Assembly: GCA_963773065.1 (NCBI GenBank)
Contig: CAVYZN010000005.1
Span: forward strand, 64,001 to 128,000
Direction: 5' to 3'
From: an uncultured Gammaproteobacteria bacterium
Lineage (GTDB): Bacteria; Pseudomonadota; Gammaproteobacteria; UBA9214
DNA length: 64,000 nucleotides
This document shows positions 43,837 through 63,914 of this stretch, piece after piece. The position numbers and the translations under genes were made by a program. Each line of letters starts with the position of its first letter. The first letter of the stretch is position 1. The notes under the pieces are model-generated. The model saw nothing but the letters and a program-made list of their open reading frames with translations, did not search any database and was not told the DNA's origin.

Positions 43837-45639
43837 TCAGGCCGAGTGCGGGTTCAACTCGGGGAGTTCCGTCTTTGCACGGTGTGGATTGCGCCGGCGA
43901 TGCGAGAACAACCGCGGACGCAACTGGTTCCTGAAATCGCTCTTCCAGGCATTGAAGTCCAGTGGCCGTGCACCGTAGATCGCGCTATCCAATGATTGGA
44001 CCAGGGCACGGAGTTTGGCCGGTTCGGCCTGCGGGTTGACCTCGATGAGTTTCTCCACGATTTGCGGCAATGGCGTATATGGCGCGATCTTGAGATGCTG
44101 GCAGATGCGGTTCTTGAACTGCACGCACCATTCCCGGGGACTGTCCTCCTGTTCGATACAGCGTGTGCACATCCAAAGCTTGATCGGTAGGGGCATGAAT
44201 AGCACGAGACCCATGCGCAGTTTTCGCAGGTACTTAATAACATTCAATCGCTGCATGGCGGCATGTGATGCGGCCATCGTCCGCCCCTTCACCGTAACCA
44301 ACGCGGTCACAGTTGCCGCCACGGCGGTTTTGAGAATCGGGCGTGTGCGCGCCCAGTTACCCAACCAGTAACCCACGATCATCCCCAGGGTAATCAGCAA
44401 GGGAAACCAGAAGAAGATGGAGTATCCACTGCCGCTGACTGCGCGTGCGGCATTTGCACTAATCCCGCTGCTCGGCAAGGCTTCAGGCTGATCGGACTGG
44501 CCGGCGATTTCGACGGTGTTCGAATCGACGTCCCACCACGCAACCCCGAGTTGGGGTAACCGTATCCAGCCATCCTTGAGGGGTATCAGGGTGTAGGTTT
44601 CCTTGCGGCTACCGATCAGGTAGGCCCCGTCATTTGAAATGCCATTTTTGGTCGTGGTCGATTCGCGATATACGCGGAAATCGTCGCTCACAAGTTGCTG
44701 TTCGAGCGTGGGCAGTTGGTCGCCGAGAGCCCCCTTGGCTTCCAGCTCAAGGGTCAGGGTTACCGGGGTGCCCTCCTTGACGCGTTGTTCATTCGACAAC
44801 TGCGCTTTCAATTTCAAATCATTCAACGGCAGCCAGGGTTTCACGGTCGGCTCTGCCGGCTGCACCCGGAGGGTAATAGGTTTGATGGAGGCTATCGTGA
44901 ACGCCTCGTCGACACCTGCAGCCGGTGGCATACCCGGCATGACATTCCATTGCGTGTTACTGGCCGCTTGTGTTCCCTTGAAGCTGATGACAGGTATCAC
45001 GATTTCACCCGAGCGCAGTGGTGTCAGCTTGAAATGGTAGGTATTGACGATTTCTCGGTTAGCGCTGTATTTGTCCGTGCGCATACTCGCAACAGGGCCA
45101 TCCACTTTCTGCAGCACGGCTCCTTCTATGTACGGCAGGATCGGGTTCAGCGTCATGAGATTATCACTGCTGACCACGCGCACGGCGTAAACGATATTCT
45201 GCTGTTCAAAAGGCGAAGTCTCGCTGACTTCTACCTCGACATTCGGTTGGCCGGCCGCGGCGGTCGCGGGTGTTTGTCCGGCGTATGGTGCATAGGCCTG
45301 CGGTGGCAGCATCGGGTTAAGCGCGCCTGGCCAACCGGTGTTGGGCGCTCCGCCGAGATAATATCCGCTGTCGGCACCGTTATTCATGGTCTGGTAACTG
45401 TAGCTGTAACTGTAGCCATTGCTGCCGCTGGCGGAGTTGTTCTCGACCTGAAGGCCGGGCTTGTATGCTCCGATATTGCCCCATGGACGATTTGTGGTGG
45501 TGCGAGAAGACTTTCCGCCGCCTTGATTACCGCTAGTGCTGAAACTGAAGGAGAAACTACTGGCCGTCTGGGTGACGCCGGAGAGGAAACTTGTCAGCAG
45601 ACAGATGAGACAGAATCGGGACATTTTCATACGATACAT
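43837..45639 (-). CDS. BatD-like exported protein with low-complexity N-terminal extension
   Basis: Signal peptide, PFEQQNIVY.V, LTPLRSG.I.IP, WLPL..L.L, G.R.ETYTLIP...G...LP.....WWD, TM. Confidence 0.8.
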   Translation of the reverse strand: MYRMKMSRFCLICLLTSFLSGVTQTASSFSFSFSTSGNQGGGKSSRTTTNRPWGNIGAYKPGLQVENNSASGSNGYSYSYSYQTMNNGADSGYYLGGAPNTGWPGALNPMLPPQAYAPYAGQTPATAAAGQPNVEVEVSETSPFEQQNIVYAVRVVSSDNLMTLNPILPYIEGAVLQKVDGPVASMRTDKYSANREIVNTYHFKLTPLRSGEIVIPVISFKGTQAASNTQWNVMPGMPPAAGVDEAFTIASIKPITLRVQPAEPTVKPWLPLNDLKLKAQLSNEQRVKEGTPVTLTLELEAKGALGDQLPTLEQQLVSDDFRVYRESTTTKNGISNDGAYLIGSRKETYTLIPLKDGWIRLPQLGVAWWDVDSNTVEIAGQSDQPEALPSSGISANAARAVSGSGYSIFFWFPLLITLGMIVGYWLGNWARTRPILKTAVAATVTALVTVKGRTMAASHAAMQRLNVIKYLRKLRMGLVLFMPLPIKLWMCTRCIEQEDSPREWCVQFKNRICQHLKIAPYTPLPQIVEKLIEVNPQAEPAKLRALVQSLDSAIYGARPLDFNAWKSDFRNQLRPRLFSHRRRNPHRAKTELPELNPHSA

Positions 45640-45742
45640 AATATTACCCTGTTGCCGTGATTGTGCATGTCGGATCAGGCATTAACATGCGCGGAATTAT
45701 TAGAATGCCCCACGTAGCATGATATAGCACAGAACACTACTT

Positions 45743-47515
45743 TTACCATGGTCTCGTTTCCATCACCATTCGTCCACGGCGATCCAATTCCTGCCGTTCC
45801 TCGATCATGAACTGGTTTTTCAACAAATAGGTCGGATCACCTTCAATCTGCTCCAGCAATTGATCCATCATGATCATTGAGATATCGGACCCTGGTTTGC
45901 CGTTTTCATCGGGTATGCCGGCAGGCTTTTCCGCATTCTTTCCACCAGGACCGGTCCCCAACTGGTCAAATCGGTCCACGGCCTGGCTTGCCTTGGTATC
46001 CTTTTCAGTGATTTCGCCGGGAGACCTGCCTGAGCCGGCTGACTGCTCGGACCCGCTACCCGCTTCCTGCTGGTCGCGTTTCTTATCGCCTCCCGCAGCA
46101 TCTTTATCTTCGTCCTTCCCACCGCCGCCCATCTCCAGCCCGACATCCCCTAGACTACCATTCTTTTCATCGGGTTTCACACCGCCATCACCCGAGTCCT
46201 TTTGTTTATCCTGGCCACCCGCCTTGGACTCCAGTTGCTGTTTTTCACCTCCGGACTCTCCCTCGGGTTTCTCCTCTTTACCCGCCTGACTTTCTGGCTT
46301 TGATTTTTCAGCGGATTGGCCCTTGGATTCCTGCTCCGGGTTAGCCGATTCCTCCTTGGCATCCTCCTCCTTTCCCTTGTTTCCCTTTAATTTCTGGTCC
46401 TTTTCGCTGGATTCACCCATGGATTCTTGCTTGCCGGCGTTGCCACTGGTTTCCTCGCCCTTGTCTCCGGATTTGCCTTGAGTGTCCTTTTTGTCCGACG
46501 CACCCTTTGATTCCTTGTCCTGCTTACCCGATGCTCCCTCGGAATCCTGTTTGTCAGACTGGCCTTTTGACTCCTGATCCTGTTTCCCGGATTCACCCTT
46601 CGATTCCTGGTCACCGGACTGTTGTTTGGATTCCTTCTGCTGGTCGCCGGACTTCTGTTCCTTGGACTCCTGCTGCTGGTCGCCGGATTTCTGTTCCTTG
46701 GATTCCTGCTGCTGGTCGCCGGACTTCTGTTCCTTGGACTCCTTCTGCTGGTCGCCGGACTTCTGTTCCTTGGACTCCTTCTGCTGGTCGCCGGACTTCT
46801 GTTCCTTGGACTCCTTCTGCTGGTCGCCGGACTTCTGTTCCTTGGATTCCTTCTGCTGGTCGCCGGATTTCTGTTCCTTGGACTCCTTCTGCTGGTCGCC
46901 GGATTTCTGCTCCTTGGATTCCTTCTGCTGGTCGCCGGACTTCTGTTCCTTGGATTCCTTCTGCTGGTCGCCGGACTTCTGCTCCTTAGATTTCTGTTCC
47001 TCGGACTTCTTTTCTTCAGATTTCTGCTTATCTTCTGGCTGGTCCTTTTTTTCCTCAACCATCTCCTCGGTCTTGGTCTCCTCGACCATTTTCTTCGCTA
47101 GCCCCAGATTGTGCAGCGTGTCTTCATCATTGGCGCGCAACGTCAGCGACTGTTCGTAGGCTTCGATCGCGCCAGGGTAATCACTTTGCTTGAAACGGGT
47201 ATTGCCGAGGTTGTAGAGGGCATCCGCCTTGACATCCTCACGCTTGACGCTGGCAAATGCTTCACCGGCATCCTTATAACGGCCTGCACGGTAAAGTGCG
47301 ACGCCGCGCCGGTAAGCATCGGAAAAACCGCTCGCCGCAGCCGCGTAGTCACCCTCTTCATAGTTTTTGGCAGCTTCCTGCTCGGGGGTTTTGAACAGGG
47401 CGGCACCGGCCGTCATTGGTACGCCCAGCGCTGCCAGCAGGAGCCACACTGTACCGCCCCGCAACAGCTTCCAACGGTAGGCCATGTGCTGATCGGATCC
47501 TGGTCTTCGCATCAT
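45743..47515 (-). CDS. BatC-like TPR protein with K/E/Q/S-rich linker
   Basis: Signal peptide, TPRs (RRGVALYRAG.Y, ALYNLGN..F, AI.AY..SL), tail LEQIEGDP..LLKNQF...RPW. Confidence 0.85.
   Translation of the reverse strand: MMRRPGSDQHMAYRWKLLRGGTVWLLLAALGVPMTAGAALFKTPEQEAAKNYEEGDYAAAASGFSDAYRRGVALYRAGRYKDAGEAFASVKREDVKADALYNLGNTRFKQSDYPGAIEAYEQSLTLRANDEDTLHNLGLAKKMVEETKTEEMVEEKKDQPEDKQKSEEKKSEEQKSKEQKSGDQQKESKEQKSGDQQKESKEQKSGDQQKESKEQKSGDQQKESKEQKSGDQQKESKEQKSGDQQKESKEQKSGDQQKESKEQKSGDQQQESKEQKSGDQQQESKEQKSGDQQKESKQQSGDQESKGESGKQDQESKGQSDKQDSEGASGKQDKESKGASDKKDTQGKSGDKGEETSGNAGKQESMGESSEKDQKLKGNKGKEEDAKEESANPEQESKGQSAEKSKPESQAGKEEKPEGESGGEKQQLESKAGGQDKQKDSGDGGVKPDEKNGSLGDVGLEMGGGGKDEDKDAAGGDKKRDQQEAGSGSEQSAGSGRSPGEITEKDTKASQAVDRFDQLGTGPGGKNAEKPAGIPDENGKPGSDISMIMMDQLLEQIEGDPTYLLKNQFMIEERQELDRRGRMVMETRPW
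46626..46985 (-). repeat. 36-bp tandem repeat x10 (KEQKSGDQQ[K/Q]ES)
   Basis: Ten in-frame units counted in the translation. Confidence 0.95.
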
Positions 47516-48548
47516 TTTGTTCGCCGGTAACTTGGAAGCGTCCGCCGGAACTGCGGCAACAGCAACAGCACTGCCAGTCCGGCCAGGAGGTAGAAACGTT
47601 CATTCCAGACCCGGGTGCGTTCGTCCCGTTCCGTGTTGGGCAAGCGCCGCCGCCTTCACCTGGGCGAGGATATCGCGGGTATCACTATCCCGGTAATCCG
47701 CCCTCTCGTATATCCCGCCACCGGCCGATGCGAGTGCTTTCAGTTCCGGTTCGTTCAGTGCGGATATTACCGGTTGACCGTTTCCTGGCCGTTAGCCAGG
47801 GATTATCGTTAGCCGGGACGGCACCGCCTTCCGGGGTACCGACACCCAACACATGCACGCGCACCCCGGCGTCAGCGAAGGATCGCACCCGTTCTTCCAG
47901 TCCCGCTTCATCAAAATCCCCATCGGTGATGATCAGCAGCGAGTTGACACTTTCCGCCGGCTGGCCGGCAATAAGTTCCTTCGCCCGGTCAAGTGCAAAC
48001 GAAAGCCGGCTTCCCTGGAGCTGCACCAGCCGGGTATCGAGCGCGGACAATACCCGGCGTATGCCATTCATGTCTTCCGTGATCGGTGATACCACATGCG
48101 CAACCGATGCGAAGGCAATCAATCCCACACGTATGCCCCGGTTCTGGTTAAGGATGTCTTCGAGTTCCTGACGTGCACGCGCCAGCCGCGTGGGCTTAAC
48201 ATCCGTCACGTTCCATGGAACGCGAAATATCGAACAACACCAGAAGATTGGTGCCCGGCTTGAACAACTGCACATCCGTGAAATCCCAGCGTGGACCCGC
48301 CATGGCCAGCACCATCAAGGTCCAAATACCCGTCCAGCGTGCAAAACGTTTCCAGCGCGTCCGTGGTGAGGTCTCCGTGCGACCGAGGAGATAGGGCATC
48401 AGATGGGCATCGGCATAGTTGCGTATCCGTTCATTCCTGCCAAGGCCGGGAAGAATCAGCAGCCAGAGGGCAACCGGGATGCAGAGCAGCAGGGCCCATA
48501 GCCAGGCGGGCTCCGAGAAATGGAAGGATGCGAGAAAGCCTCATCCAT
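47512..48548 (-). CDS. BatB-like VWA protein (several frameshifts)
   Basis: AMAGPRW, DISRSM MIDAS, DVKPTRL.RAR, VGLIAFA, TDGD, LGVGTPEG across several frames. Confidence 0.85.
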
Positions 48549-49579
48549 GCGCGCGTGCCCTGAACCAGGTCCTGGGTATGCCATCCGGGAACAGGCCAAG
48601 CACCAGCAGGACAAACAGCGCCACGCCCAGTGGCCAGCGATAGAGCGGGCTGGGAATCATGACGCTGCGCGATTCTGCCTTGGTTTTTTCCAGCGTATCG
48701 ATGCGTTGATAAATCTTTCTCCAGCGCATCGGTATCCGTGGCTCGGAAGTAGGCGCCGCCGGTCATGTCCGCAAGTTCAGTCAACAATTCCTCGTCGATT
48801 TCCATCTTTTGCTCGGTCATCCGGCCGTCTTCGATGAATGGCACCAGTCCCTTGCTGCCCACGCCTATCGTGTAGATACGGATTCCTTCCTTGGCGGCCA
48901 GTTGCCCGGCCAAGCGGGGCGGTAGGCTGCCCGCGGTGTTTTCACCATCGGTAAGCAGGATCATGACTCTCGATCCCTCCGGGCGTTCCCGCAATTTTTT
49001 TACAGCCAGGCCAACGCCATCACCGATTGCCGTGGCGTCGCCGGCCATGCCTGAGACGATGCTGTCTACCAGTGCATGCACTGCACTGACGTCCAGTGTC
49101 ATCGGTGAGAACACAAATGCCTGACCGCCGAAAACTACCATCCCGATGCGATCCCCCTGCCGGGCCTGTATAAAACGTCCGATCACGCCCTTGACCACCG
49201 CCATGCGTGTGACCTGCCGGCCATTGACGCTAAAATCCAGGGCCTCCATGGACCGCGAGGTATCGATAACCAGCATCAGGTCATAGCCTTCGGTACGCAC
49301 CTCTGAATAGGGTTCCAGCCACTCCGGGCGCATCAGGGCGAGGATCAAGGCGACCCATAGCAGGGCCAGCATGATGGTCTTCTGCAAGCTGCCCGTATGG
49401 GTAAGGGATCGGGCCGACAAAAAAGTTGACGCCAACCGGCCAAGCGCCGGGTGCAGCAAGGTAGTGCCCTCACCCTGGCTGTAGTAATCGGATGGCTTGT
49501 GACGGCGCGGCCAGAACTTCCAGACGAGCAGCGGGAGCGGCAATAACAGGGCAAGCCACGGCCAATGAAAACTAAACAT
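48541..49579 (-). CDS. BatA-like VWA protein (frameshift near 48715)
   Basis: FHWPW.., ALMRP.W, DTSRSM, GDRIG..VFG, TAIGDG, LLTDGEN, YTIGVG, YFRATD. Confidence 0.9.
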
Positions 49580-50141
49580 GGCCAGACCCGGTTTTGCCAA
49601 GTATGCCGACCCGGACCGTCCGGATACGAGTCCGCACACCCATGCCCTTGCGCGTCGGTTGTGTAGCATCAATCCAGCGCGTTGCCGCGCGTATCAGCAA
49701 CGCCAGCTCCTTGCGTTCAACCTCCATGGACGGCGGCATGTATGGCGCCTTCAGCAGCACCTGGCCGCGTTCTTCCCAGTCAAAGCCGCTGGTATCCTTC
49801 TCCGCAAGCCAGTGCAGCCAGGTTTCCCCCGTCAATCCGGCGGCAACGCGGCGGCCACTGCGCGCCATCGCGATGCGCCGCAGAAGTTCCGATAACCGTC
49901 CCGCCACTTCCCGGGGATTTTCCCTCAGCAATGCCTTGCGCAAAGCATTGAGTTTGCGACGGGCATCGCTGCGCCAGCCCAACCACGGTCCATGGCGTAC
50001 CAGCCAGTATCCAATGACGATAACCACCGGGACAAGAGCGAGAGCGGCAATGACGTACCACCAACCCGGAGCCGGTGGCCACCAAGGAACCCCATCAAGG
50101 CCATGGATATCACGCAGGGTTCCCGAAAATGATTTCATCAT
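49572..50141 (-). CDS. DUF4381 membrane protein
   Basis: LRDIH....WWPPAPGWW, LLRR.A, LTG..WL.WL. Confidence 0.88.
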   Translation of the reverse strand: MMKSFSGTLRDIHGLDGVPWWPPAPGWWYVIAALALVPVVIVIGYWLVRHGPWLGWRSDARRKLNALRKALLRENPREVAGRLSELLRRIAMARSGRRVAAGLTGETWLHWLAEKDTSGFDWEERGQVLLKAPYMPPSMEVERKELALLIRAATRWIDATQPTRKGMGVRTRIRTVRVGILGKTGSGHV

Positions 50142-50143
50142 GT

Positions 50144-51059
50144 CTACACCCTGCCTCCCGCGTAACGCCGCAAGCCTTCAGTCAATACATAATGCACATC
50201 GGCGTCTGTGCTGACGGGAATAAAACCGATCCCGAGCCGGTAAGCCATCTGTTGGACCTCATTGCGACGCAATTCCCAATCGTCGCGAAATGCCTGCCGG
50301 CCCCGTTCATTATCCGTATCCACTTCCAGCAACTCGCCAACGGCATTGGAGAAAATGACGGATCCCATGGCGGGAAGGTCGCTATCGGCAGGATCATCGA
50401 TTGGCAGTAACAGTACATCATGGCGCTGACGCAGACTTCCCAGTGTGCGTTCCAGGCCGATCGAGACCTGGTTGATGGCGGCAATGACAAAGATCAACGA
50501 CCCGGTCGTGCTGCCGGAATCCAGATGCTGCAGCGCGGCAATTATTCGGGTGTCATCGATCTCGCCATGCTCGGCCGGTTTTGTCAGTGCTCGTAACAGA
50601 CGCCACAGACCGCGCCGCCCCGGGGTCGCCCGGAAATACTGGGTACCCATGGCCGGATTACCGAAGAGCACGCCACCAACCCGATCCTGCTGTTTGCTCG
50701 CGGCCCAGCCAATCAGCGCTGCGGTGCGCGCCGCCTGGATGGATTTGAAGGTGCCGCGGGTGCCAAAACTCATGTGCGGTCCGGTGTCGACGCACAGCAT
50801 GACGTTGCGCTGCCGTTCTTCGCGAAACACCTTGAGATGCGGCCTGCCGGTGCGGGCCGTGACCAGCCAGTCCATGTTGCGGATATCGTCACCTTCCCGA
50901 TACTCGCGCACTTCCTCGAAGTCCAGCCCGGTACCGCGGAAAACCGAAGAATAAAGGCCGGCGAAGGTCGAATTGACAAGATGATGCGCGGCGACACCCA
51001 GCGTCACGCGCCTGATGGCGAAGTTCTAGCAGGTCATCGAGCCGTGGATAGAGAATCAT
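50144..51059 (-). CDS. DUF58 protein (N-terminal frameshift near 51005)
   Basis: G.GLDFEEVREY..GDDIR.MDW.VTAR, K.F.EERQR, M.FGT; start MILYPRLDDLL at 51059. Confidence 0.9.
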
Positions 51060-51133
51060 TATTGGTCACAGGCCCGGATTAAGCGGAAAAGGTACAACAA
51101 TAGACACACCCGAACGGGCTACTGCTGAATGCA

Positions 51134-55296: not shown

Positions 55297-55324
55297 TTCT
55301 TTCTCTTGAAAATATAACCGAGTA

Positions 55325-56412: not shown

Positions 56413-57072
56413 TTATGATTGCCCGGCCATGTCGGGATACAGCGCTTTTGCCAACGTCCTGAACTCCTGCGCCGCCTTGCTCCGCGGCCACATCTCGAAC
56501 ACTGTCAGCCCTTCACTCAGTGAACGGCGAAATCCTGTTCTCAGGCGCAGTCGTTGTGGCAGAACGACATCAATCCCCGGCAACATGCGCAAAGCCGCTT
56601 CTGTTTCGTGCGTTTCACGGATGGATTTGTTTGTGTCAGCCCGGTTGACGAACGCCATCGTTCGCTGCGTACCGCTGGCCTTCATGGCCTCGAGGTCAGG
56701 TCCAATGATATGCAGGAAGCGCTGGGTTGCCCAGACGTCGGCCTGACTCGGGGGGACCGGTATCAGAATACGGTCCGCTGCGGTCAGGGCTTCTTTCATG
56801 GCCGCCAGATTTGCCGCGCCGACATCGATGAGAACCTCATAGCCGGCATGGGATAGCAGTTGCTCCTTGAGCACGGCCCGCACGGAGTGGATCGTCAGAT
56901 CGGGTTTGTATTCCATCTCTCTGCGCAGCATCGCCAGATCACTGAAGGTGCACTGTGGGTCGAGATCGTAACCGATGACTGAACGGTTATTTTTTTCCAG
57001 CCAGACTGCCAGGTTGAAGGCCACCGTACTCTTGCCGGAGCCGCCTTTAAGATTCGCAATAATAGTAATCAT
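56413..57072 (-). CDS. ParA/MinD-family ATPase (short, no HTH)
   Basis: Deviant Walker A KGGSGKST, DLDPQ, LIDVG, ADRILIPV.PS..D. Confidence 0.92.
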   Translation of the reverse strand: MITIIANLKGGSGKSTVAFNLAVWLEKNNRSVIGYDLDPQCTFSDLAMLRREMEYKPDLTIHSVRAVLKEQLLSHAGYEVLIDVGAANLAAMKEALTAADRILIPVPPSQADVWATQRFLHIIGPDLEAMKASGTQRTMAFVNRADTNKSIRETHETEAALRMLPGIDVVLPQRLRLRTGFRRSLSEGLTVFEMWPRSKAAQEFRTLAKALYPDMAGQS

Positions 57073-57149: not shown

Positions 57150-57953
57150 TCAAGACTGTATGACGCGGATCAACGGTTGTTTCCCTGCCCTCTGCTCCGG
57201 AGCACCACCTTGCGGGATGCTCATTTCCTTGTAGCCAGGCGGCACGCTAAACAAATCTGCCGGTTGCTTGCCAATCCTGATATTGCGTAATTCGCTGACA
57301 AACCCTCCCGGCCGCTCTTCGCGGATATTTATCTTCAGCTCGGGATCAAACCACTGGTAGGCGACACTGCTCTGGTCACCGGGACGTGTGGCTGTCATTT
57401 CCCATTTCTCGGTATTGCGGCCGTTCAGTGTTTCCCTGCCTACCAGACGCATTTCCATGGTTGCTCCGTCCGGAAAGGTTTGACGAACCGGGATATGACG
57501 CTCCTGATCCAACCAGATAAGCATCTGGCTGGATTGCTCCTGGGCCGTACTCTTCAACTCCCATTTTTCCGCTGGCCGTCCATTGATGGCCTCGACGCCG
57601 ATCTTGTTACAGCTAAGGTTCTGCATACCCGCGCATGGGTTTGCATCCTTCGCGGCAGTTTCCGGCATCATTTCTCCCGGACCCGCCTTGTGTTCCATAT
57701 AGGTTTGTTGCTCGGGATCGAGCATATAGGCCGCCTGTTGCTTCATGTCGATAATCTGGACCATCGCCTCGTCGCTAACGGTGACCTCGGTGCGCACTTG
57801 TTCGTTGCCTATGTAAATCTTCCCCTGCTGGGATTCTTGCTGCGGCATTGATTGAATAAAATCAGCGGAGAATTCGACCTGATTCTGTCCGGCAACGGCC
57901 GAGGCGGATGTAAACAGCAACAATAGCAATGAAGAGAGAATCTGGAATCGCAT
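57150..57953 (-). CDS. Exported DUF4412-like protein
   Basis: Signal peptide; duplicated G.E..NGR..EKWE...W.D module; P...F..PPGY. Confidence 0.75.
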   Translation of the reverse strand: MRFQILSSLLLLLFTSASAVAGQNQVEFSADFIQSMPQQESQQGKIYIGNEQVRTEVTVSDEAMVQIIDMKQQAAYMLDPEQQTYMEHKAGPGEMMPETAAKDANPCAGMQNLSCNKIGVEAINGRPAEKWELKSTAQEQSSQMLIWLDQERHIPVRQTFPDGATMEMRLVGRETLNGRNTEKWEMTATRPGDQSSVAYQWFDPELKINIREERPGGFVSELRNIRIGKQPADLFSVPPGYKEMSIPQGGAPEQRAGKQPLIRVIQS

Positions 57954-58000: not shown

Positions 58001-58040
58001 AAATAAAAAACGAGCCAACACATCCCTGTGGAGGCTCGTC
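58001..58040 (-). terminator. Terminator after sgp
   Basis: Minus strand GACGAGCC...GGCTCGTT followed by TTTTATTT. Confidence 0.7.
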
Positions 58041-58056: not shown

Positions 58057-58487
58057 TTATTGGCTGGCACCCGATGTTGCTGGTTGGGCGGGTGCGGGTG
58101 CAGCCGCCGGGGCACCGTAACCATACGGAGCACCATAGGCACCGGGATAACCGCCATAGCCGCCATAGCCAGGCCACCCCAGCCACCACCATAACCCGGA
58201 TAGCCACCATAGCCATAGCCGGGATAACCGTAGCCGCCATAGCCATAGCCATAGCCATTACCATAACCACGCCCACGCCCATAACCACTACCATGGCCGC
58301 CACCGCTCATGCTGAAGTCGAAATCACCGGAGCCGTCACCCCAGCCGTCACCCGAGCCGTCATTACCCCAGCCATTACTCCAGGGACCACCACCGCCCCA
58401 TGGACCCCAGGCCTGAGCTGCCGTGAAAGGAATCGCCATGGCGCCGGCAATGGCGGTGGCACACAACGTTTTGGTCAGTTTATTCAT
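58057..58487 (-). CDS. Sulfur globule envelope protein, SgpA/SgpB-like (frameshift near 58175)
   Basis: Signal peptide ending AQA, then WGPWGGG..GDGSGDFDFSMSGGG.G.GYGRGRGYGNGYGYG; shifted frame GAYGAPYGYGAPAAAPAPAQPATSGASQ*; resembles Allochromatium vinosum SgpA as recalled. Confidence 0.85.
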
Positions 58488-58690: not shown

Positions 58691-59320
58691 TTACCAACCA
58701 TAAACCGGCGGGATCATTTCCGGGTAAACGTTATATATTCCGCCGCCCCCACCCGGAACCCCCAGCGATGGGTCAACTAGGCCATAACCATAACCACCAT
58801 AACCGCCATAACCGCCATAACCGCCATAGCCTGGCCATCCTCCGTAGGGGATTGTAGCAGGTCGTTGTTCCTGAGGTGTCGCGCTTTTTTGCTTTTTTTC
58901 CGGGGTCGGGAATGCACCCCAGGGACGTTGTTGGTATTGATACTGTGGCTCAGTCTGATAGGGCTGAGACGGGTTTTGCGACTGGCCAGGCTGGGACCAG
59001 GGCGACGGTTCCTGGGATGAGTGCTGTGTCATTTGCGGTTGTTGATAAATACCAGTGTAATACGGTTGTTGCGATTGCCCCGCCGGTTGTGGCGACGGTA
59101 CCGGCACAGGGACATAGACCGTCTGCGGCGGCAGGTATTTTGAACGCGGATACCACTCCTTGACGATCGGTTGCTGGGCCTGTGGTTCCTTTCCCACGCC
59201 GCTCGCAGTCGCATCCTCCCTCTCTTGATCATCACCGCAGGAGGCGACTAGGTAACAAATACATATCATTGCAATCCATATGACCAGGGTTTTTGAGCGT
59301 GGGTGACTCTGCATCCCCAT
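58691..59320 (-). CDS. Pro/Gln/Tyr/Gly-rich putative lipoprotein
   Basis: Lipobox-like LVASC, RPWG motif, (GYG)n tail. Confidence 0.7.
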   Translation of the reverse strand: MGMQSHPRSKTLVIWIAMICICYLVASCGDDQEREDATASGVGKEPQAQQPIVKEWYPRSKYLPPQTVYVPVPVPSPQPAGQSQQPYYTGIYQQPQMTQHSSQEPSPWSQPGQSQNPSQPYQTEPQYQYQQRPWGAFPTPEKKQKSATPQEQRPATIPYGGWPGYGGYGGYGGYGGYGYGLVDPSLGVPGGGGGIYNVYPEMIPPVYGW

Positions 59321-59337
59321 GGCGATTATGTGTGCGT

Positions 59338-59964
59338 TTACTGTGCACCGCTGCCACGACGATAAAGCTGGTCAGGTGACGGCGGTACTATCCTGCCGTT
59401 ATATAAAGGCGGTGGTGGGACTTCATCTTCACTGCGCTGCCCGGGTGAGTTATACCAGGGTGAGGGCGCATAGCCATTAACGCGAATCGCCTGAGGGCGG
59501 GTAACCATATGAACCCGTATAATCCTGGACCGGTGCGGCCCAGCTCTGGTTATAGCCTTGCGATCGGTAGTACCCGGGGGAGATTTATCGCCAGAGGGCT
59601 CGTTTCCGGTATACGCGCCGGGTGCCATTGGTCGTGCCGGTGTACCAGCAGACGGTGGGGCGCCCATGAAATCACCCGGCAGTTCCTCACTCTGGGCCCG
59701 GGGTGTATCAAGGCCGCTCCCAAATGGGATCCTCAGATCCTCTTGACCCGGTATCCGGGGATCGACGTTGACGGACTGATAAGGGCCGGGCGGCGGCGGC
59801 GCGGATACAATGGCCCAGTCATTACTGTAGCTATAGGAGGATGATTGTGTTCCCGTATCACCCGGCGGCTGATCTTCAGCAACGACATCGGTTAACACCA
59901 AGCTGCCTGCGATTGCCAGAAACACACCAAGACAGTGAATTGAGATAGCACCATGGTGTTTCAT
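59338..59964 (-). CDS. Pro-rich exported hypothetical protein
   Basis: Signal peptide, SYSYS, PPPPGPYQS; probable compensating frameshifts around 59480-59580. Confidence 0.65.
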   Translation of the reverse strand: MKHHGAISIHCLGVFLAIAGSLVLTDVVAEDQPPGDTGTQSSSYSYSNDWAIVSAPPPPGPYQSVNVDPRIPGQEDLRIPFGSGLDTPRAQSEELPGDFMGAPPSAGTPARPMAPGAYTGNEPSGDKSPPGTTDRKAITRAGPHRSRIIRVHMVTRPQAIRVNGYAPSPWYNSPGQRSEDEVPPPPLYNGRIVPPSPDQLYRRGSGAQ

Positions 59965-60044
59965 TGTTAATTCCTTTCAGTTATCTGCTGTATCCAGTAT
60001 GGATCCGAGTATGTATCCGGTGATCTTCAGCCCAAACCGAATAT

Positions 60045-63000
60045 TTACTTGAGATCTTGTTTGAGACGAATACCACGACGTTTCCGCACAATACCCTCAC
60101 CTTCCGTGTCATCCGCTATTTCAGATGAGGTCATGGCACTTTCATCAGCCTCCTCGCCTGAATGGTCAACATCATCGGCGAACACCGCCTCAGGAGCGGA
60201 GCCGCTTCCAGCCACAGTCTCAGCCACAACAGGATCGGATGTGGGAACTGGTGCGCCCCTCCCGTGCGGTGCCGGCGCTTTTTCACCTGCAGGCTGCAGT
60301 GATGCAGCCGTGCTCGTCGCGGCATCCGCCGCACCGGCGGCTGGGGCGGGTCGCGGCGGCGGTGGTTGGCGCGGGGGCGGGGGCGTTCCCCCGCGTGGCG
60401 GCGGAGGCGTGCCACCCGCACCCGGTGAAGGTTGCCGCGGTGGCGGAGGCGCTGCACCACGACGGTGACCAGACTTGCCCAGGATCGCCTTGAAACCCAT
60501 GCCGAGCATGGTGAAGATGGCCCGGATGATGTAGAACAGCCAGGTAAAGACCGAGATGATCCCACCGTACAGGCGCATCCACAGCGGCGTACCAGCCGGG
60601 GCGGCCGTTTCATTCGAAACCTGTTCGATGCGTTGGTATGCTGGACTGATGCCGATCGTTCCGTCATCGGCGGTTTCGATATAGAACTGCTTGCGGGCGC
60701 TGATACAACCAAGCGGGACAACCAGCACGGCCATACAGGTGGCCACGCCGGCGCCAAACAGCGTACTGATTGCAAGGCCACTGAAGATCGGATCATGTAA
60801 TATCGCGAATGCGCCGACCATCACGGTCAGGGTGGTGATAAGGATGGGCCGCATGCGGACTTCCGCACCGTGGATGGCCGCTTCCCTGACATCTTTTCCT
60901 TTGGCCACCTCGATCTTGACGAATTCCACAATCAGGATCGATTGCCGCACGATGATGCCGCCCAAGGCGATCATGCCGATCATCGATGTTGCCGTGAATT
61001 CCGCGCCCATGATCCAGTGCCCTGGTATGATACCGAGCAGGGTCAACGGGATCGGCGACATGATCAAACCGGCGAGGGTGAAATTCTTGAACTCCCAGAC
61101 TATCAGGGCATAAATCAGCACCAGGGCCGCCATGAATGCACCGCCCATGTCGCGGAAGGTTTCGTACGTCACCGTCCACTCCCCGCTCCACTCATAGCCG
61201 GAGTGGTTATCATCCTTGGGAGCGCCAAACAGGTTCCACGGCATGGTCACCATTTTCACGCCATCCGGTGCGGTGTAGTCCTTGACGAGATCCTCGATGC
61301 CGAGCATGCCGTAAATCGGCGCGCCCAGACGGCCCTCCATCTCGCCTATCACGTACTCGACCCCGCGCAGGTCCTTGGAGTAGATGATGGGGTCTTCAGG
61401 CTGCTTGATGAACTGGCCCAGCTCGGAGAGGGGCAACGTCTTGCCGTCGTTTGTCGGTACCGGCAGATCTCCCAAACGCGTTATTTGTGACCGGATGGAA
61501 AGCGGAACCTGGATCACGATATAGGTCGGTTCCAGCACCGTTTCGCGTTTAACATCCCCCAACTTGAAGTTGCCCATGGCCATGGTAAGCGTATTGTTGA
61601 TGGTGTCGACCGAGATACCGCGGCGCACGGCCTTTTCGGTATCGACCTCGAAGCGCCAGTATTCGTAGGGTTCAGCCATGTAGTTGTCGACATCGACGAC
61701 ATTCTCGACCTTCCCGAACATGGCCGTCATGTCGGCGGCCACCTTGCGCCGTGTTTCAGCATCCGGCCCATGGACTTCGGCAACCACCGTCTGCAGCACC
61801 GGCGGCCCCGGCGGCATCTCGACCACCGCGATACGCGCTCCCATCGATTCCGCCAAGGGAGTCAAGCGGTGGCGCGCGTCCACGGCAAGTTGATGACTGG
61901 TACGCTCGCGTTCATTCTTGTTCTTGATCATGACCAGCAAATCACCATCCCAGGAACGTTGGCGCAAGTAGTAATGACGCACCATGCCGTTGAAATTGAA
62001 CGGCTGGGCGGTCCCGGCATACGTCTGCACCGCAGTGACTTCCGGTATGTTGCGCACCTCCTCGGCCAGCGCCCTGACGACATTGGCGGTTACCGGCATC
62101 GCCGTTCCTTCCGGCATGTTGACGATCACGGAAAATTCCGGCTTGTTATCAAACGGCAGCATCTTTACGACAACGGTCTGGGTATAAAAGAGCACGCACA
62201 ACCCGGCCGTTAGTCCGATGATGCTGAACAGAAACGCGAAGCCCAGAAAGCGGTTTTCAATCAGTGGGGTGATGATGGGGCGGTAAAATCGCCTGATTTT
62301 TGCGTGCGTCTTCTGTTCCTTTTTCATCGCCTTTTCCAGAGACGCCATCCGGGGTGCGACCTTGACCGCCAACCAGGGCGTAAAGATAAAGGCCGCGAGC
62401 AGCGAGAAGAACATGGCAGAGGAACCCAGCACCGGAATGGGCCGCATATAGGGTCCCATGAGACCACTCACCCAACCCATGGGTAAGAGCGCCGAGATAA
62501 TGGTAAAGGTGGCCAGGATGGTCGGATTGCCGACTTCCCGGACCGCATCGACGGCGATGGCGACGCTGGTCTTGCCCCTCTCCAGCCAGTGACGAAAGAT
62601 ATTCTCGATGACCACGGCAGCATCATCCACCAGGATGCCAATCGAGAAGATCAGGGCAAAAAGGCTGACGCGATCGATGGTGTAATCCACCATCATTGCC
62701 CACCAGATCGTGACCAGGATGACAACGGGAATCACGGTAATGACAACGAAAGCGGCACGAAAACCCAAGCCGTACAGACACAACAGTGAGACGAAAACCG
62801 CCGCCTCGAGCATGGCCTCCAGCAGTTCGTTGACCTTGTCATTGGCTGTCTTGCCGTAATTTCGGGTAATCTCCACATGAACGTTCGCGGGAATCAGATC
62901 CCCCTTGAGATCCTCGATCTTCTCCAGCAGCCGATTGGCCACCACCACGCCATTGGTTTTTTCCTTCTTGGCGATGGCGATGGTAACGGCCGGGGCGCCA

Positions 63001-63914
63001 TCGGCCGCGGGGTTCTCTCCCGCGTAGGCCGGTCCTGTGTAGTGCGCAACCATCTGGGTCGGATCCGCCGGTTCGTGTGCTACCCGAGCCACATCGCGAA
63101 CGTAAACCGGTGCGCCATTGCGCACGCCCACGACCAGACGCTCGATATCGGAAGCCGTCTTCAGGAAGGCCCCGGTGCGCACCGCCAAGGCGGTACCACC
63201 GGTTTCGACACCGCCCGCTGTCTTCTCCGCATTGGCCGTGCGTATGGTTTCGGCGACCTGCGGCAGACTAATGCCAAAGCCGGAAAGACGCTCAGGCAAT
63301 ACCTCTACCTTGAGCTGATCCTCGCGCCCTCCAACAACAAAGCCCTTGCCGGCATCCGGTACCTCGCCAAGGCGTTGCAGCAAATCCAGGGCCAGTGTTC
63401 GCAATGAACCGTCATCGAGATCCTCGGACCACAGGGTGAGCGCTACGACAGGTACATCATCAACCGCGACCGGCTTGACCAGCGGCATGGAGACATCAGG
63501 TGGAATCTTGTCTAGATTGGATTGCAGCTTGTCATGCACCTTGACAATCGATTTCCCCATGTCCTCGTTGACATAGAAGCGCACGGTTACCATGGCGCGG
63601 CCGCGTTCGGTCGCCGTGTAGGTATGCTCAACGCCGGGGATTTCTTTCATGATCCGTTCCAGCGGTTCGGTAACCAGGCTGGCGACCTGTTGGGCCGAGG
63701 CCCCGGGATACTGGACGAAGACATCCACCATCGGGACGGATATTTGAGGATCTTCCTGGCGGGGAGTGAAAAACAAACCCATCAAACCAACAAGCAACGC
63801 GGCAATCAGCAACATCGGCGTGACAGGGGACGTAATAAAGAGACGTGCTGTTCTGCCGGCGATACCCAGTGATTTGGCATCATGCGGTTTGGAGATTTCT
63901 TGTTGTTCAGCCAT
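60045..63914 (-). CDS. RND efflux permease (AcrB/CzcA-like) with long C-terminal Pro/Ala-rich tail
   Basis: PRQEDPQI, GILVDDA.V.IENI, GIIVRQSILIVEF, R.RPILITTL; two-half RND architecture. Confidence 0.93.
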   Translation of the reverse strand: MAEQQEISKPHDAKSLGIAGRTARLFITSPVTPMLLIAALLVGLMGLFFTPRQEDPQISVPMVDVFVQYPGASAQQVASLVTEPLERIMKEIPGVEHTYTATERGRAMVTVRFYVNEDMGKSIVKVHDKLQSNLDKIPPDVSMPLVKPVAVDDVPVVALTLWSEDLDDGSLRTLALDLLQRLGEVPDAGKGFVVGGREDQLKVEVLPERLSGFGISLPQVAETIRTANAEKTAGGVETGGTALAVRTGAFLKTASDIERLVVGVRNGAPVYVRDVARVAHEPADPTQMVAHYTGPAYAGENPAADGAPAVTIAIAKKEKTNGVVVANRLLEKIEDLKGDLIPANVHVEITRNYGKTANDKVNELLEAMLEAAVFVSLLCLYGLGFRAAFVVITVIPVVILVTIWWAMMVDYTIDRVSLFALIFSIGILVDDAAVVIENIFRHWLERGKTSVAIAVDAVREVGNPTILATFTIISALLPMGWVSGLMGPYMRPIPVLGSSAMFFSLLAAFIFTPWLAVKVAPRMASLEKAMKKEQKTHAKIRRFYRPIITPLIENRFLGFAFLFSIIGLTAGLCVLFYTQTVVVKMLPFDNKPEFSVIVNMPEGTAMPVTANVVRALAEEVRNIPEVTAVQTYAGTAQPFNFNGMVRHYYLRQRSWDGDLLVMIKNKNERERTSHQLAVDARHRLTPLAESMGARIAVVEMPPGPPVLQTVVAEVHGPDAETRRKVAADMTAMFGKVENVVDVDNYMAEPYEYWRFEVDTEKAVRRGISVDTINNTLTMAMGNFKLGDVKRETVLEPTYIVIQVPLSIRSQITRLGDLPVPTNDGKTLPLSELGQFIKQPEDPIIYSKDLRGVEYVIGEMEGRLGAPIYGMLGIEDLVKDYTAPDGVKMVTMPWNLFGAPKDDNHSGYEWSGEWTVTYETFRDMGGAFMAALVLIYALIVWEFKNFTLAGLIMSPIPLTLLGIIPGHWIMGAEFTATSMIGMIALGGIIVRQSILIVEFVKIEVAKGKDVREAAIHGAEVRMRPILITTLTVMVGAFAILHDPIFSGLAISTLFGAGVATCMAVLVVPLGCISARKQFYIETADDGTIGISPAYQRIEQVSNETAAPAGTPLWMRLYGGIISVFTWLFYIIRAIFTMLGMGFKAILGKSGHRRGAAPPPPRQPSPGAGGTPPPPRGGTPPPPRQPPPPRPAPAAGAADAATSTAASLQPAGEKAPAPHGRGAPVPTSDPVVAETVAGSGSAPEAVFADDVDHSGEEADESAMTSSEIADDTEGEGIVRKRRGIRLKQDLK

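What the first reader, a model, noticed from the sequence alone, without database searches (positions are those of the whole stretch)
43837..63914. Candidate sulfur-globule biogenesis and positioning supercluster
Seen: 20 kb of co-oriented genes places an SgpA/B-like envelope protein and two further G/Y/P-rich exported proteins with an RND permease, DUF4412, an orphan ParA, a TM-TPR protein, DUF302, a TM coiled-coil, an EHD/dynamin-like NTPase and a full MoxR-DUF58-DUF4381-BatABCD set. Known: Sgp proteins coat periplasmic sulfur globules; orphan ParA/MinD ATPases position organelles (McdA, ParC); dynamins/EHDs remodel membranes; MoxR-VWA pairs chaperone complex assembly. Inference: this is an organelle toolkit for building, invaginating, loading and spacing sulfur globules. 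I know of no described machinery for this. Caveat: a terminator after sgp and a separate promoter before moxR indicate several transcription units.
Basis: partly seen in the sequence, partly recalled or inferred. Interest (0 to 1): 0.9.

Follow-up and report, generated by a model that had tools for sequence, protein, structure and literature searches.

The report
Sulfur-globule gene module with ParA-tethered pump
Half of this 20-kb stretch is a conserved gene set that travels with sulfur-globule coat genes in many sulfur-oxidising bacteria and probably builds and spaces their sulfur stores, while the other half is an ordinary, unrelated stress operon.

Summary

Unit 1 is window 52464-63914 and runs about 2 kb past the window end. 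It is a conserved module:
- membrane-fusion protein and a long RND permease;
- three exported low-complexity proteins, one a canonical Sgp, followed by a terminator;
- a LolA-fold DUF4412 protein, ParA, TM-TPR, TM-DUF302 and a small TM protein;
- an EHD/dynamin-like protein.

In 400 class-level genomes, 54 of 55 Sgp-positive genomes carry the RND ortholog, in 34 of 34 Sgp-positive families. An sgp gene lies within 3.2 kb of it in 17 genomes.

New here: the RND ends in an invariant RRGIRLK motif. The motif is present where the module has ParA and is lost with it. A complex model places it on the ParA dimer: score 0.73, best control 0.03.

Unit 2, MoxR-DUF58-DUF4381-BatABCD, is an ordinary Bat operon. 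It is adjacent to unit 1 only in close relatives.

The function is inferred from genomes and models only. Several genes carry single-base frameshifts, probably assembly errors.

The parts
60045..63914 (-). Long-form RND permease, 1289 aa: 12 TM segments, an extra hydrophobic helix at aa 1115-1133, and a Pro-rich disordered tail.
   Evidence: ACR_tran 1.7e-137. Nearest solved chain 6vej, 1.8e-62. Hydrophobic segments. Orthologs at 48% identity or more in 71 of 400 class-level genomes.
60060..60080 (-). C-terminal RRGIRLK motif of the RND tail, the predicted docking peptide for ParA.
   Evidence: R, G, I and L are invariant in 44 of 44 aligned tails, which are otherwise 23% identical. It is the only match to the back-translated pattern in the genome. 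It co-varies with ParA. It forms the modelled interface with the ParA dimer.
59338..59964 (-). Exported Pro-rich protein of 208 aa carrying a PPPGPYQS motif. It belongs to no known family.
   Evidence: No Pfam or NCBIfam hit. N-terminal hydrophobic segment. Proteins with the same motif sit in the same position in other families, for example L137, L144, L061, L023.
58691..59320 (-). Exported Q/P/Y/G-rich protein of 209 aa with a lipobox-like VASC, G-Y repeats and a C-terminal W. It is a probable lipoprotein.
   Evidence: No Pfam hit. Sequence. Hydrophobic N-terminus. Syntenic counterparts, several with a lipobox and most ending in W.
58057..58487 (-). Canonical sulfur globule protein gene (Sgp). 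Its C-terminus is shifted out of frame in the assembly.
   Evidence: PF17228 5.9e-12, above the cut-off. A second frame gives the usual G/Y/A/P-rich end and a stop at 58057-58059. It is one of four Sgp loci in the genome.
58003..58039 (-). Intrinsic-terminator-like hairpin plus T-run directly after sgp.
   Evidence: Inverted repeat of 13-nt arms, 85% complementary, 4-nt loop. A run of seven T follows on the coding strand. The consensus scan did not report it.
57150..57953 (-). Exported DUF4412 protein with a LolA-superfamily fold, a putative periplasmic carrier of a hydrophobic ligand.
   Evidence: DUF4412 1.7e-12. AlphaFold2 model: pLDDT 87.1, pTM 0.79. Foldseek hits: LolA3 9tp6 1.3e-7, NE2245 3buu, RseB, LolA, LprG; TM-scores 0.36-0.43 for the top five (LolA3, NE2245, DUF1329, 3bk5), lower for the rest (RseB and LprG about 0.2-0.27).
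56413..57072 (-). ParA/MinD-family ATPase of 219 aa with no ParB-like gene beside it.
   Evidence: CbiA 5e-13, AAA_31, MipZ. NCBIfam ParA_partition 2e-36, below its cut-off. KGGSGKST is invariant in 44 orthologs.
55325..56387 (-). Single-pass TM protein with a long A/P/E-rich linker and a C-terminal TPR domain. It reads as two overlapping frames in this assembly.
   Evidence: TPR_16 5.9e-8 on the second frame. TM segment at aa 8-26. It is one gene in relatives.
54706..55389 (-). N-terminally anchored DUF302 protein. The likely start is at 55296.
   Evidence: DUF302 1.9e-12. TM at aa 4-22 counted from the inner start. It holds the same position in relatives.
54173..54634 (-). Small single-pass TM protein of no known family. 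Orthologs align from about aa 28.
   Evidence: No Pfam hit. TM at aa 54-72. 69-75% identical counterparts in G010, G022, G014 and G007, absent in G001, G009, G024 and G017. Usually 0.5 kb upstream of the dynamin-like gene elsewhere.
52464..53997 (-). EHD/dynamin-like NTPase with a helical stalk and a TM hairpin. It is about 510 aa in relatives and is split here by a +1 indel near 52891.
   Evidence: Dynamin_N 8.6e-13. The profile hits EHD4 at 2.9e-7. Model of the 90%-identical ortholog: pLDDT 86.1, pTM 0.81. Foldseek: EHD4 6.1e-11, EHD2, bacterial dynamin pair, mitofusin, IniA, BDLP. Indel located.
43837..52126 (-). Separate MoxR-DUF58-DUF4381-BatA-BatB-BatC-BatD operon. BatA and BatB are broken by five single-base indels, and BatC carries 36-nt tandem repeats.
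   Evidence: Pfam hits. Indels. Repeats. Adjacent to the module only in G001 and G009. 0 of 80 other loci have it. BatD lies elsewhere in five same-family genomes.

Best explanation
The stretch holds two independent units.

Unit 1 spans 52464-63914 plus a membrane-fusion protein and a small SCP2-like protein just beyond the window. It is a conserved envelope module of Sgp-bearing sulfur oxidisers.

Shown by computation here:
- its gene order is conserved across many families;
- its RND permease is co-distributed with Sgp and lies next to sgp genes;
- most of its products are exported or anchored with their bulk outside the cytoplasm;
- the DUF4412 member has a LolA-like fold;
- the RND ends in an invariant basic motif that co-varies with ParA and is modelled onto the ParA dimer interface.

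Inferred mechanism:
- The fusion-protein/RND pump and the LolA-like carrier move a hydrophobic cargo from the inner membrane to the periplasmic globule. The cargo is most likely zero-valent sulfur or an acylated envelope protein.
- The globule coat is made by the co-encoded Sgp and two new low-complexity proteins.
- ATP-bound ParA on the nucleoid holds the pump by its cytoplasmic tail. It thereby spaces the export sites, and hence the globules, as McdA does for carboxysomes.
- The EHD/dynamin-like protein is a frequent but dispensable addition that remodels the membrane around the globule.

Unit 2 (43837-52126) is an ordinary MoxR-Bat operon that happens to lie downstream in this lineage.
For: Synteny:
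- The RND-to-dynamin-like order recurs in 7 of 8 same-family genomes. An eighth keeps DUF4412-ParA-TPR-DUF302-TM-dynamin-like, and another family keeps a rearranged form.
- Of 53 named loci with at least 8 kb upstream of the dynamin-like gene, 43 hold two or more module genes: RND in 41 and ParA in 35. They include Sedimenticola, Ca. Thiodiazotropha, a tubeworm symbiont, Chromatiaceae MAGs, Thiohalomonadaceae and Thiohalobacter.
- Five Sgp-positive genomes without the dynamin-like gene still keep fusion protein-RND...DUF4412-ParA-...-TM protein.

Co-distribution in 400 genomes that are at least 90% complete:
- RND ortholog against Sgp: 54 both, 17 RND only, 1 Sgp only, 328 neither.
- 34 of 34 Sgp-positive families have the ortholog.
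- Within 125 dsrA-positive genomes: 50 / 15 / 1 / 59.

Adjacency:
- A PF17228 hit lies within 3.2 kb of the long-form RND in 17 genomes. An Sgp hit lies within 5 kb of the dynamin-like gene in 11 genomes.
- Syntenic ORFs in four other families score above the Sgp cut-off.

Precedent: A. vinosum sgpD lies next to a hydrophobic/amphiphilic exporter gene (PMC10386293, introduction read).

ParA link:
- Tail motif invariant in 44 of 44 sequences.
- In 35 non-redundant loci: motif+ParA+ 26 (counting one KHRGIRLK variant), motif-ParA- 8, one discordant.
- The joint loss occurs in at least two clades.
- Complex model: score 0.73, best of 3 controls 0.03. That mark was reached by 58 of 80 solved complexes and 2 of 110 mismatched pairs. 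The runs agree in at least 38% of contacts, and the partner pLDDT is at least 47.
- Interface residues of the tail are 30-31, 33, 35-41 and 44, which is the motif itself.
- Known partners bind ParA/MinD ATPases through a positively charged disordered terminus (bioRxiv 10.1101/2022.06.09.495121, section 20).

Folds.

Bat independence.
Against: - There are no expression, localisation or genetic data. The look-up of sequencing runs could not be reached in five tries.
- Co-distribution is among related genomes and is not phylogenetically independent. The RND ortholog cut (E = 0, 48% identity or more) was set after seeing the scores, and borderline rows exist (965 and 922 bits).
- 17 RND-positive genomes have no PF17228 hit. 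PF17228 also misses some Sgp-like ORFs, so both error directions exist.
- In Sedimenticola and Thiodiazotropha-type loci the exported proteins after the RND are not PF17228 members.
- An extra hydrophobic helix after TM12 could put the tail in the periplasm, out of reach of ParA.
- The ParA/motif co-loss rests on only two independent events.
- The complex model used my own alignments and an ATP ligand, unlike its calibration. Solved ParA/MinD-peptide complexes exist, so the pass may reflect likeness only. The partner's own fold is uncertain.
- LolA-fold TM-scores are modest (about 0.4).
- RND pumps with a fusion protein normally expel substrates across the outer membrane. No outer-membrane factor was looked for genome-wide.
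- A. vinosum sgpD is a separate transcription unit. The gene that follows it (Alvin_2516) does not respond to sulfide (PMC10386293, section 3.4).
Confidence: 0.55

Rival explanations
1. The module is a general envelope or efflux system of sulfur oxidisers. It might export or detoxify polysulfides, organosulfur compounds, lipids or a lipoprotein towards the outer membrane. It sits beside sgp only because both are needed under sulfide and share regulation. It does not build or position globules.
For: - The RND and HlyD-type fusion protein are ordinary efflux families.
- 17 of 71 RND-positive genomes lack a PF17228 hit, including small genomes that keep only fusion protein and RND.
- LolA-fold proteins usually carry acyl chains.
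- sgp is followed by a terminator.
- The gene that follows A. vinosum sgpD (Alvin_2516) does not respond to sulfide (PMC10386293, section 3.4).
Against: - Within dsrA-positive genomes the RND tracks Sgp, not sulfur oxidation as such: 59 dsrA-positive genomes lack both.
- sgp and two further low-complexity exported genes are embedded between the RND and DUF4412 in the same order in several families.
- A ParA tether and a dynamin-like partner are not features of known efflux pumps.
Confidence: 0.25
2. One reading: all 20 kb, including MoxR-DUF58-DUF4381-BatABCD, form one sulfur-globule supercluster.
For: The genes are co-oriented and adjacent here, in one same-genus genome and in one genome of a second genus of the family (G001, G009).
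Against: - 0 of 80 other loci have any Bat hit. 51 of them hold at least 5 kb downstream.
- 6 of 8 same-family genomes lack the adjacency.
- BatD orthologs lie on other contigs or 29 kb to more than 300 kb away in five of them.
- A 337-nt gap separates the units.
- Bat operons are described in Bacteroidetes and spirochaetes, which store no sulfur (PMC3557215 and PMC5700661; listing and abstracts).
Confidence: 0.04
3. The ParA positions another cargo, such as the chromosome, a plasmid, carboxysomes or chemoreceptor arrays. The RRGIRLK motif serves something else, for example lipid or nucleotide binding, or another partner.
For: - ParA/MinD ATPases have many cargos, and known partners use N-terminal, not C-terminal, basic peptides.
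- The extra hydrophobic helix makes the tail's side of the membrane uncertain.
- The co-loss counts only two events.
Against: - ParA sits inside the module in 35 of 43 module loci and in five further genomes.
- No ParB-like gene is adjacent.
- The motif is unique in the genome.
- The model places exactly the motif on the dimer interface, with controls at 0.03 or below.
Confidence: 0.1
4. In this particular genome the cluster is decaying. The frameshifts in sgp, TM-TPR, the dynamin-like gene, the fusion protein, BatA and BatB are real pseudogenisation.
For: At least eight frame breaks in about 22 kb.
Against: - The breaks that could be aligned are single-base indels.
- Essential dsrA is also split.
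- The assembly contains a 227-nt poly-G artefact.
- Relatives at 85-92% identity have intact genes.
Confidence: 0.1

Closest known systems
Allochromatium vinosum sgpD locus (SgpD, Alvin_2515)
   Same: A sulfur-globule protein gene lies next to a gene for a hydrophobic/amphiphilic (RND-type) exporter. sgpD forms its own transcription unit with a terminator, as sgp does here (PMC10386293, introduction and section 3.4).
   Different: Only the neighbourhood is mentioned there, in passing, and no function is proposed. I could not test whether that exporter is an ortholog with the RRGIRLK tail, or whether ParA, DUF4412, DUF302 or dynamin-like genes accompany it. The genomes here are unnamed and the 2013/2014 A. 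vinosum papers were not held.
McdA-McdB carboxysome positioning and other ParA/MinD cargo systems (ParC-ParP, PpfA-TlpT)
   Same: A small ParA-type ATPase with the deviant Walker A is encoded beside its cargo genes. The partner offers a short, positively charged peptide on a disordered segment.
   Different: The predicted partner peptide is at the C-terminus of a 12-TM RND transporter, not the N-terminus of a soluble adaptor. The cargo would be a membrane complex serving an extracytoplasmic inclusion. Nucleoid binding and ATPase stimulation are untested.
Transporter plus LolA-fold carrier pairs (LolCDE-LolA, LprG-Rv1410; named from my own knowledge)
   Same: An inner-membrane transporter is encoded with an exported half-barrel protein of the LolA/LprG fold.
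   Different: The transporter here is an RND with a fusion protein, not an ABC or MFS type. The cargo is unknown. DUF4412 has no detectable sequence match to any solved chain.
EHD ATPases and bacterial dynamin-like proteins (BDLP, DynA/DynB, IniA, mitofusins)
   Same: G domain with a GxxxxGKS/T P-loop, DxxG and an NQxD G4-like motif. A long helical stalk and a hydrophobic hairpin. Best fold matches are EHD4 and EHD2, then the bacterial dynamin pair, MFN2, IniA and BDLP.
   Different: About 510 aa, smaller than BDLPs. No EH domain. The G4 is NQxD rather than N/TKxD, so nucleotide preference is open. The family also occurs alone in genomes without Sgp or dsrA.
Bat (Bacteroides aerotolerance) / MoxR-VWA operons
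   Same: Unit 2 has the usual order MoxR AAA+, DUF58, DUF4381, two VWA membrane proteins, a TPR protein and BatD. The operon is described in Bacteroidetes and spirochaetes (PMC3557215, PMC5700661; listing and abstracts).
   Different: BatC carries about 10 copies of a 36-nt repeat. BatA and BatB are interrupted by single-base indels in this assembly.

Membership tests
Sulfur globule protein (Pfam PF17228 SGP) | Profile score above the curated gathering cut-off | tested here: met
   46.7 bits against 26.7, E 5.9e-12. The whole-genome scan gives the same place as the best of 5 matches.
Sulfur globule protein (Pfam PF17228 SGP) | Sec signal peptide and location on the globule envelope | not testable with these tools
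   An N-terminal A-rich hydrophobic stretch ends in AQA just before the profile match. No signal-peptide predictor and no proteome were available.
RND permease, HAE-1-like tripartite pump | ACR_tran domain with 12 TM segments | tested here: met
   ACR_tran 1.7e-137. Hydrophobic segments. Solved RND chains from 1.8e-62. All NCBIfam RND models score below their cut-offs, so it is a distant member.
RND permease, HAE-1-like tripartite pump | Adjacent membrane-fusion protein and an outer-membrane factor | tested here: inconclusive
   A HlyD_D23/HlyD_3 fusion protein lies directly upstream. No outer-membrane-factor-like frame was evident among ORFs of 100 aa or more in the next 9 kb. Only three of those were scanned by Pfam, and the genome was not searched.
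ParA/MinD ATPases | Deviant Walker A KGGxxGK[ST] with the signature lysine | tested here: met
   KGGSGKST at aa 9-16, invariant in 44 orthologs. Pfam CbiA, AAA_31 and MipZ.
ParA/MinD ATPases | Partner that contacts the ATP dimer through a basic disordered peptide | tested here: inconclusive
   Predicted only. The RRGIRLK tail is modelled across the dimer interface: score 0.73, best control 0.03; 58 of 80 solved and 2 of 110 mismatched pairs reach the mark; contact agreement at least 38%; partner pLDDT at least 47. No binding was measured.
ParA/MinD ATPases | Non-specific DNA or membrane binding that provides the positioning surface | not testable with these tools
Dynamin superfamily (EHD / bacterial dynamin-like) | G domain motifs G1, G3 and G4, and the dynamin fold with a helical stalk | tested here: met
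   GTFSAGKST, DSPG and NQxD are conserved in 69 sequences. Dynamin_N 8.6e-13. Fold matches EHD4 6.1e-11, BDLP, MFN, IniA.
Dynamin superfamily (EHD / bacterial dynamin-like) | Nucleotide-dependent oligomerisation and membrane remodelling | not testable with these tools
   Not assayable here. A hydrophobic hairpin at about aa 337-395 is predicted.
LolA superfamily | Open half-barrel fold with a hydrophobic cavity | tested here: inconclusive
   The model has pLDDT 87.1. The best matches are LolA3, NE2245, DUF1329, RseB, LolA and LprG at E 1e-7 to 1e-4, but the TM-scores are only 0.36-0.43 for the top five and lower for RseB, LolA and LprG. There is no sequence match to solved chains. The cavity was not inspected.
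Bat / MoxR-VWA operon | Gene set MoxR, DUF58, DUF4381, BatA, BatB, BatC and BatD in one orientation | tested here: met
   Pfam hits for all seven. BatA and BatB reading frames are broken by five single-base indels.
Single sulfur-globule 'supercluster' of 20 kb | All parts syntenic with sgp in other lineages | tested here: not met
   The Bat half is absent from 80 of 80 other loci and from 6 of 8 same-family loci. The upstream half meets the test.

The most novel reading that the evidence does not exclude
This module is the missing machinery for periplasmic sulfur globules.
- A dedicated RND/fusion-protein pump, with a LolA-like carrier, feeds hydrophobic zero-valent sulfur from the membrane into a coat.
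- The coat is built from Sgp and two undescribed families of low-complexity proteins.
- A ParA ATPase on the nucleoid grips the pump's RRGIRLK tail and so spaces and partitions an extracytoplasmic organelle from inside the cell.
- An EHD-like protein shapes the surrounding membrane.

This would be the first ParA/MinD system whose cargo is a transporter, and the first genetic handle on globule biogenesis.
Probability: 0.3. Interest if true: 0.9.

Novelty: new variant of a known kind. Interest (0 to 1): 0.75.

Why it matters
How bacteria make, fill, place and inherit sulfur globules is an old open question. Only coat proteins (SgpA-D) are known, and no biogenesis or positioning factor has been described.

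I found none in my searches: 'sulfur globule' with dynamin; SgpD; Alvin_2515; A. vinosum with dynamin; sgp with RND, ParA or DUF4412; 'dynamin family protein' with sulfur-oxidising symbiont; sulfur globules with ParA or McdA.

A module that tracks Sgp in 34 of 34 families, in symbionts of clams and tubeworms as well as free-living sulfur oxidisers, gives concrete genes to delete and tag.

The ParA-RND tail prediction is a sharp, cheap test: a peptide-binding assay and a seven-residue truncation. If it holds, the ParA/MinD principle extends to a membrane transporter serving a periplasmic inclusion.

The work also separates an ordinary Bat operon from the interesting part, so follow-up is not misdirected.

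Tried and rejected
- **One supercluster including Bat:** rejected on synteny.
- **Dynamin-like gene as the module's marker:** rejected. It is found alone in 15 of 16 fetched loci from genomes with neither dsrA nor Sgp. No conserved neighbour emerged among 22 module-free loci. A quick tree (the careful search did not finish) shows module-linked and solitary copies in separate clades, with 5 label changes against 16.2 when shuffled.
- **Consensus promoter and terminator scan:** not above shuffles, 6 against 7.9 and 11 against 11.7. It was not used as evidence.
- **The 131-aa upstream protein:** no Pfam hit. 'SCP2-like' rests only on automatic cluster names in the ESM Atlas (score 0.99 for what may be its own cluster; a PF02036-bearing cluster at 0.93). 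It is a lead only.
- **Sequence searches against solved structures:** nothing found for DUF4412 and DUF302.
- **G/Y-rich composition filter:** it missed the exported proteins of the Sedimenticola and Thiodiazotropha-type loci. ORF listing and Pfam showed these belong to no known family.
- **Expression and read evidence:** The look-up of sequencing runs was unreachable five times, so read laying was never used.
- **A. vinosum papers:** the 2014 proteome paper is not held. Supplements are closed. The A. vinosum transcriptome and proteome tables, and symbiont proteomes, may already list these genes, and I could not see them.

Full report
**What is there.**
- Pfam confirms an AcrB-type RND permease, an Sgp (PF17228 above its cut-off), DUF4412, a ParA/MinD-type ATPase, a TPR protein and DUF302.
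- It also confirms a Dynamin_N protein, MoxR, DUF58, DUF4381, two VWA proteins (BatA and a BatB fragment), a TPR BatC and BatD.
- Two exported low-complexity proteins and a small TM protein have no family.

Several genes are broken: sgp (C-terminus), TM-TPR, the dynamin-like gene, BatA and BatB.
- Against a 90%-identical relative, the breaks that can be aligned are single-base indels.
- The upstream fusion-protein gene and dsrA elsewhere in the genome are also split.
- A 227-nt poly-G tract sits at 43135-43361.
- I read this as a noisy assembly of a 91%-complete, 6%-contaminated genome bin, not as decay.

**Two units, not one.**
I fetched the neighbourhood of the dynamin-like gene in ten relatives.
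- The order RND, exported proteins, Sgp, DUF4412, ParA, TM-TPR, DUF302, (small TM protein), dynamin-like recurs across four genera of the family. It recurs in rearranged form in another family.
- MoxR-Bat follows only in G001 and G009.

A scan of named genomes with a nine-sequence profile found at least 558 relatives of the dynamin-like protein, of which the best 80 loci were kept.
- They include Sedimenticola, Ca. Thiodiazotropha, a tubeworm symbiont, Chromatiaceae and Chromatiales bins, Thiohalomonadaceae, Thiohalobacter and Thiogranum.
- None of the 80 has a Bat hit. 51 of them hold at least 5 kb downstream.
- 43 of the 53 loci with at least 8 kb upstream hold two or more module genes. The RND is co-linear in 16 and divergent in 25.
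- BatD orthologs exist in five same-family genomes, but elsewhere.
- Bat operons are described in Bacteroidetes and spirochaetes (PMC3557215, PMC5700661; listing and abstracts).

The downstream 8.3 kb is therefore an ordinary neighbour.

**Extent of the module.**
Beyond the window end lie a frameshifted HlyD-type membrane-fusion protein and a 131-aa protein.
- Both are present in the same order in Thiodiazotropha, Sedimenticola, Chromatiaceae-bin and tubeworm-symbiont loci.
- The 131-aa protein has no Pfam hit. Automatic ESM-Atlas cluster names call it SCP-2-like, which is a lead only.

**Link to sulfur globules.**
The same evenly drawn sample of 400 class-level genomes, each at least 90% complete, was searched four times:
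- the dynamin-like profile: 83 positive;
- PF17228: 55 positive;
- dsrA (TIGR02064): 125 positive;
- the RND protein.

RND scores fall into orthologs (E = 0, 48% identity or more; 71 genomes) and paralogs at 40-45%. A few rows are borderline.

Cross-tabulation:
- RND against Sgp: 54 both, 17 RND only, 1 Sgp only, 328 neither.
- All 34 Sgp-positive families have the ortholog. Eight families have it without a PF17228 hit.
- Within the 125 dsrA-positive genomes: 50 / 15 / 1 / 59. The gene follows Sgp, not sulfur oxidation in general.
- Dynamin-like against Sgp: 49 / 34 / 6 / 311.

These genomes are related, so the Fisher values the scripts printed overstate significance, and I do not rely on them.

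Physical linkage:
- A PF17228 hit lies within 3.2 kb of the long-form RND in 17 genomes and within 5 kb of the dynamin-like gene in 11.
- Between the RND and DUF4412, several families carry the same series. First comes a Pro-rich exported protein with a PPPGPYQS motif. Next comes a Q/P/Y-rich protein, often with a lipobox and ending in W. Last comes an Sgp.
- PF17228 scores above its cut-off for 4 of 7 such Sgp-position ORFs tested and below it for one.

The Dahl laboratory noted that A. vinosum sgpD lies next to a hydrophobic/amphiphilic exporter gene (PMC10386293). That is the only printed precedent I found.

**Which genes are core.**
- Five Sgp-positive genomes without the dynamin-like gene keep fusion protein-RND...DUF4412-ParA-(TPR)-(DUF302)-TM protein.
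- Two small genomes keep only the fusion protein and the RND.
- Conversely, 25 genomes have the dynamin-like gene without the RND ortholog.
- Of the 21 genomes with the dynamin-like gene but neither dsrA nor Sgp, I fetched 16. In 15 of them the gene stands alone.
- Where both genes exist, they are within 8 kb in 31 of 58 genomes.

The dynamin-like protein is thus a widespread membrane protein that is often, but not always, recruited next to the module.
- Its model (pLDDT 86.1) matches EHD4 and EHD2 best, then bacterial dynamin pairs, mitofusins, IniA and BDLP. It has a hydrophobic hairpin.

**The ParA tether.**
Long-form RNDs carry a variable tail of 90-430 residues (Pro-rich here, Lys/Ala-rich elsewhere). 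It ends in an invariant RRGIRLK (44 sequences).
- The motif occurs once in this genome.
- Among 35 non-redundant loci with at least 6 kb downstream, 26 have both motif and ParA (one with KHRGIRLK). Eight have neither, and their tails are cut to 0-101 residues (most 0-27). One has the motif without a detected ParA.
- On an RND tree the joint absence falls in two clades, so it represents two events, not eight.

A complex model of two ParA chains, two ATP and the last 45 tail residues gave:
- score 0.73, best of 3 controls 0.03;
- a mark reached by 58 of 80 solved complexes and 2 of 110 mismatched pairs;
- agreement between runs in at least 38% of contacts, and partner pLDDT of at least 47;
- tail interface residues 35-41, the motif itself, lying across the dimer interface.

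Caveats: my own alignments and a riding ligand differ from the tool's calibration. Solved ParA/MinD-peptide complexes exist, so likeness may drive the score. A hydrophobic helix after TM12 leaves the tail's side of the membrane open. Known partners use a basic disordered N-terminus. A C-terminal one on a transporter would be new.

**Periplasmic side.**
- Sgp, the two low-complexity proteins and DUF4412 have N-terminal export signals by reading. TM-TPR, DUF302 and the small TM protein have one N-terminal anchor.
- Their orientation was judged only by flanking charges, which is my inference.
- The DUF4412 model (pLDDT 87.1) matches LolA-superfamily proteins at modest TM-scores.
- DUF302 genes also sit in sox clusters of Acidithiobacillia and Thiobacillus (PMC5037610, passages).

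**Mechanism proposed (inference).**
- The pump and carrier deliver a hydrophobic cargo to a periplasmic globule.
- The globule is coated by the co-encoded proteins.
- ParA on the nucleoid spaces the pumps.
- The dynamin-like protein remodels the membrane.

The main rival is a general efflux or envelope role under sulfide. It is not excluded.

**Transcription units.**
- A hairpin plus T-run follows sgp.
- A 337-nt AT-rich gap precedes moxR.
- The consensus scans were uninformative.

**Novelty and verdict.**
Searches of the held literature found no description of this module, of a ParA-RND link, or of any globule biogenesis or positioning factor. Subscription papers and supplements were not visible.

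I rate the finding as a new variant of known kinds: ParA/MinD cargo positioning and transporter-plus-carrier export, attached to a known organelle coat. Interest is 0.75.

Noticed in passing
window 43135-43361: A tract of about 227 nt that is 81% G, decaying into G/T, lies between a PEP-CTERM-like gene and the end of batD. It looks like a two-colour sequencing artefact or a false join. Contiguity across it is doubtful.
   Followed up: partly
window 47600-58200 and G000:C27:22982-24194: Single-base frameshifts occur in many genes: sgp, TM-TPR, dynamin-like, BatA, BatB, the fusion protein beyond the window, and dsrA on another contig. This suggests genome-wide indel errors.
   Followed up: partly
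L118:1098-2817 (window-equivalent 64098-65817, beyond the window end): The module starts outside the window with a 131-aa protein of no Pfam family (SCP-2-like by ESM Atlas names only) and a HlyD-type fusion protein.
   Followed up: partly
window 46619-46987: BatC holds 10.2 copies of a 36-nt repeat (94% matches). It encodes a 12-residue K/E/S/Q-rich repeat.
   Followed up: no
window 41664-41850 (-): Rfam match to group-II intron domains D1-D4 (RF02001, 62.1 bits, complete model) with no obvious intron-encoded protein examined.
   Followed up: no
window 24000-34000: G+C drops to 0.47-0.53 against about 0.58-0.61 around it. Two tRNA genes lie at 30404-30601. This may be an island.
   Followed up: no
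window 39667-41442 (+) and 42395-43072 (+): A 591-aa exported protein that reads like a subtilisin-type protease with C-terminal repeats (by eye, not scanned). A 225-aa protein has a weak PEP-CTERM match, E 0.0016, below the cut-off.
   Followed up: no
class-level sample, e.g. G392:C272, G033:C7, G100:C41: Many Sgp-positive genomes carry a second, short-form paralog of the RND, about 1090-1130 aa. It has no tail and so no RRGIRLK motif, at 52-63% identity. Its role and neighbourhood were not examined.
   Followed up: no
L119-L134 and L048, L074, L084, L091, L093, L095, L099, L100, L109, L116: The EHD/dynamin-like family also occurs alone, in separate clades, in genomes without dsrA, Sgp or the module. 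No conserved neighbour was found.
   Followed up: partly
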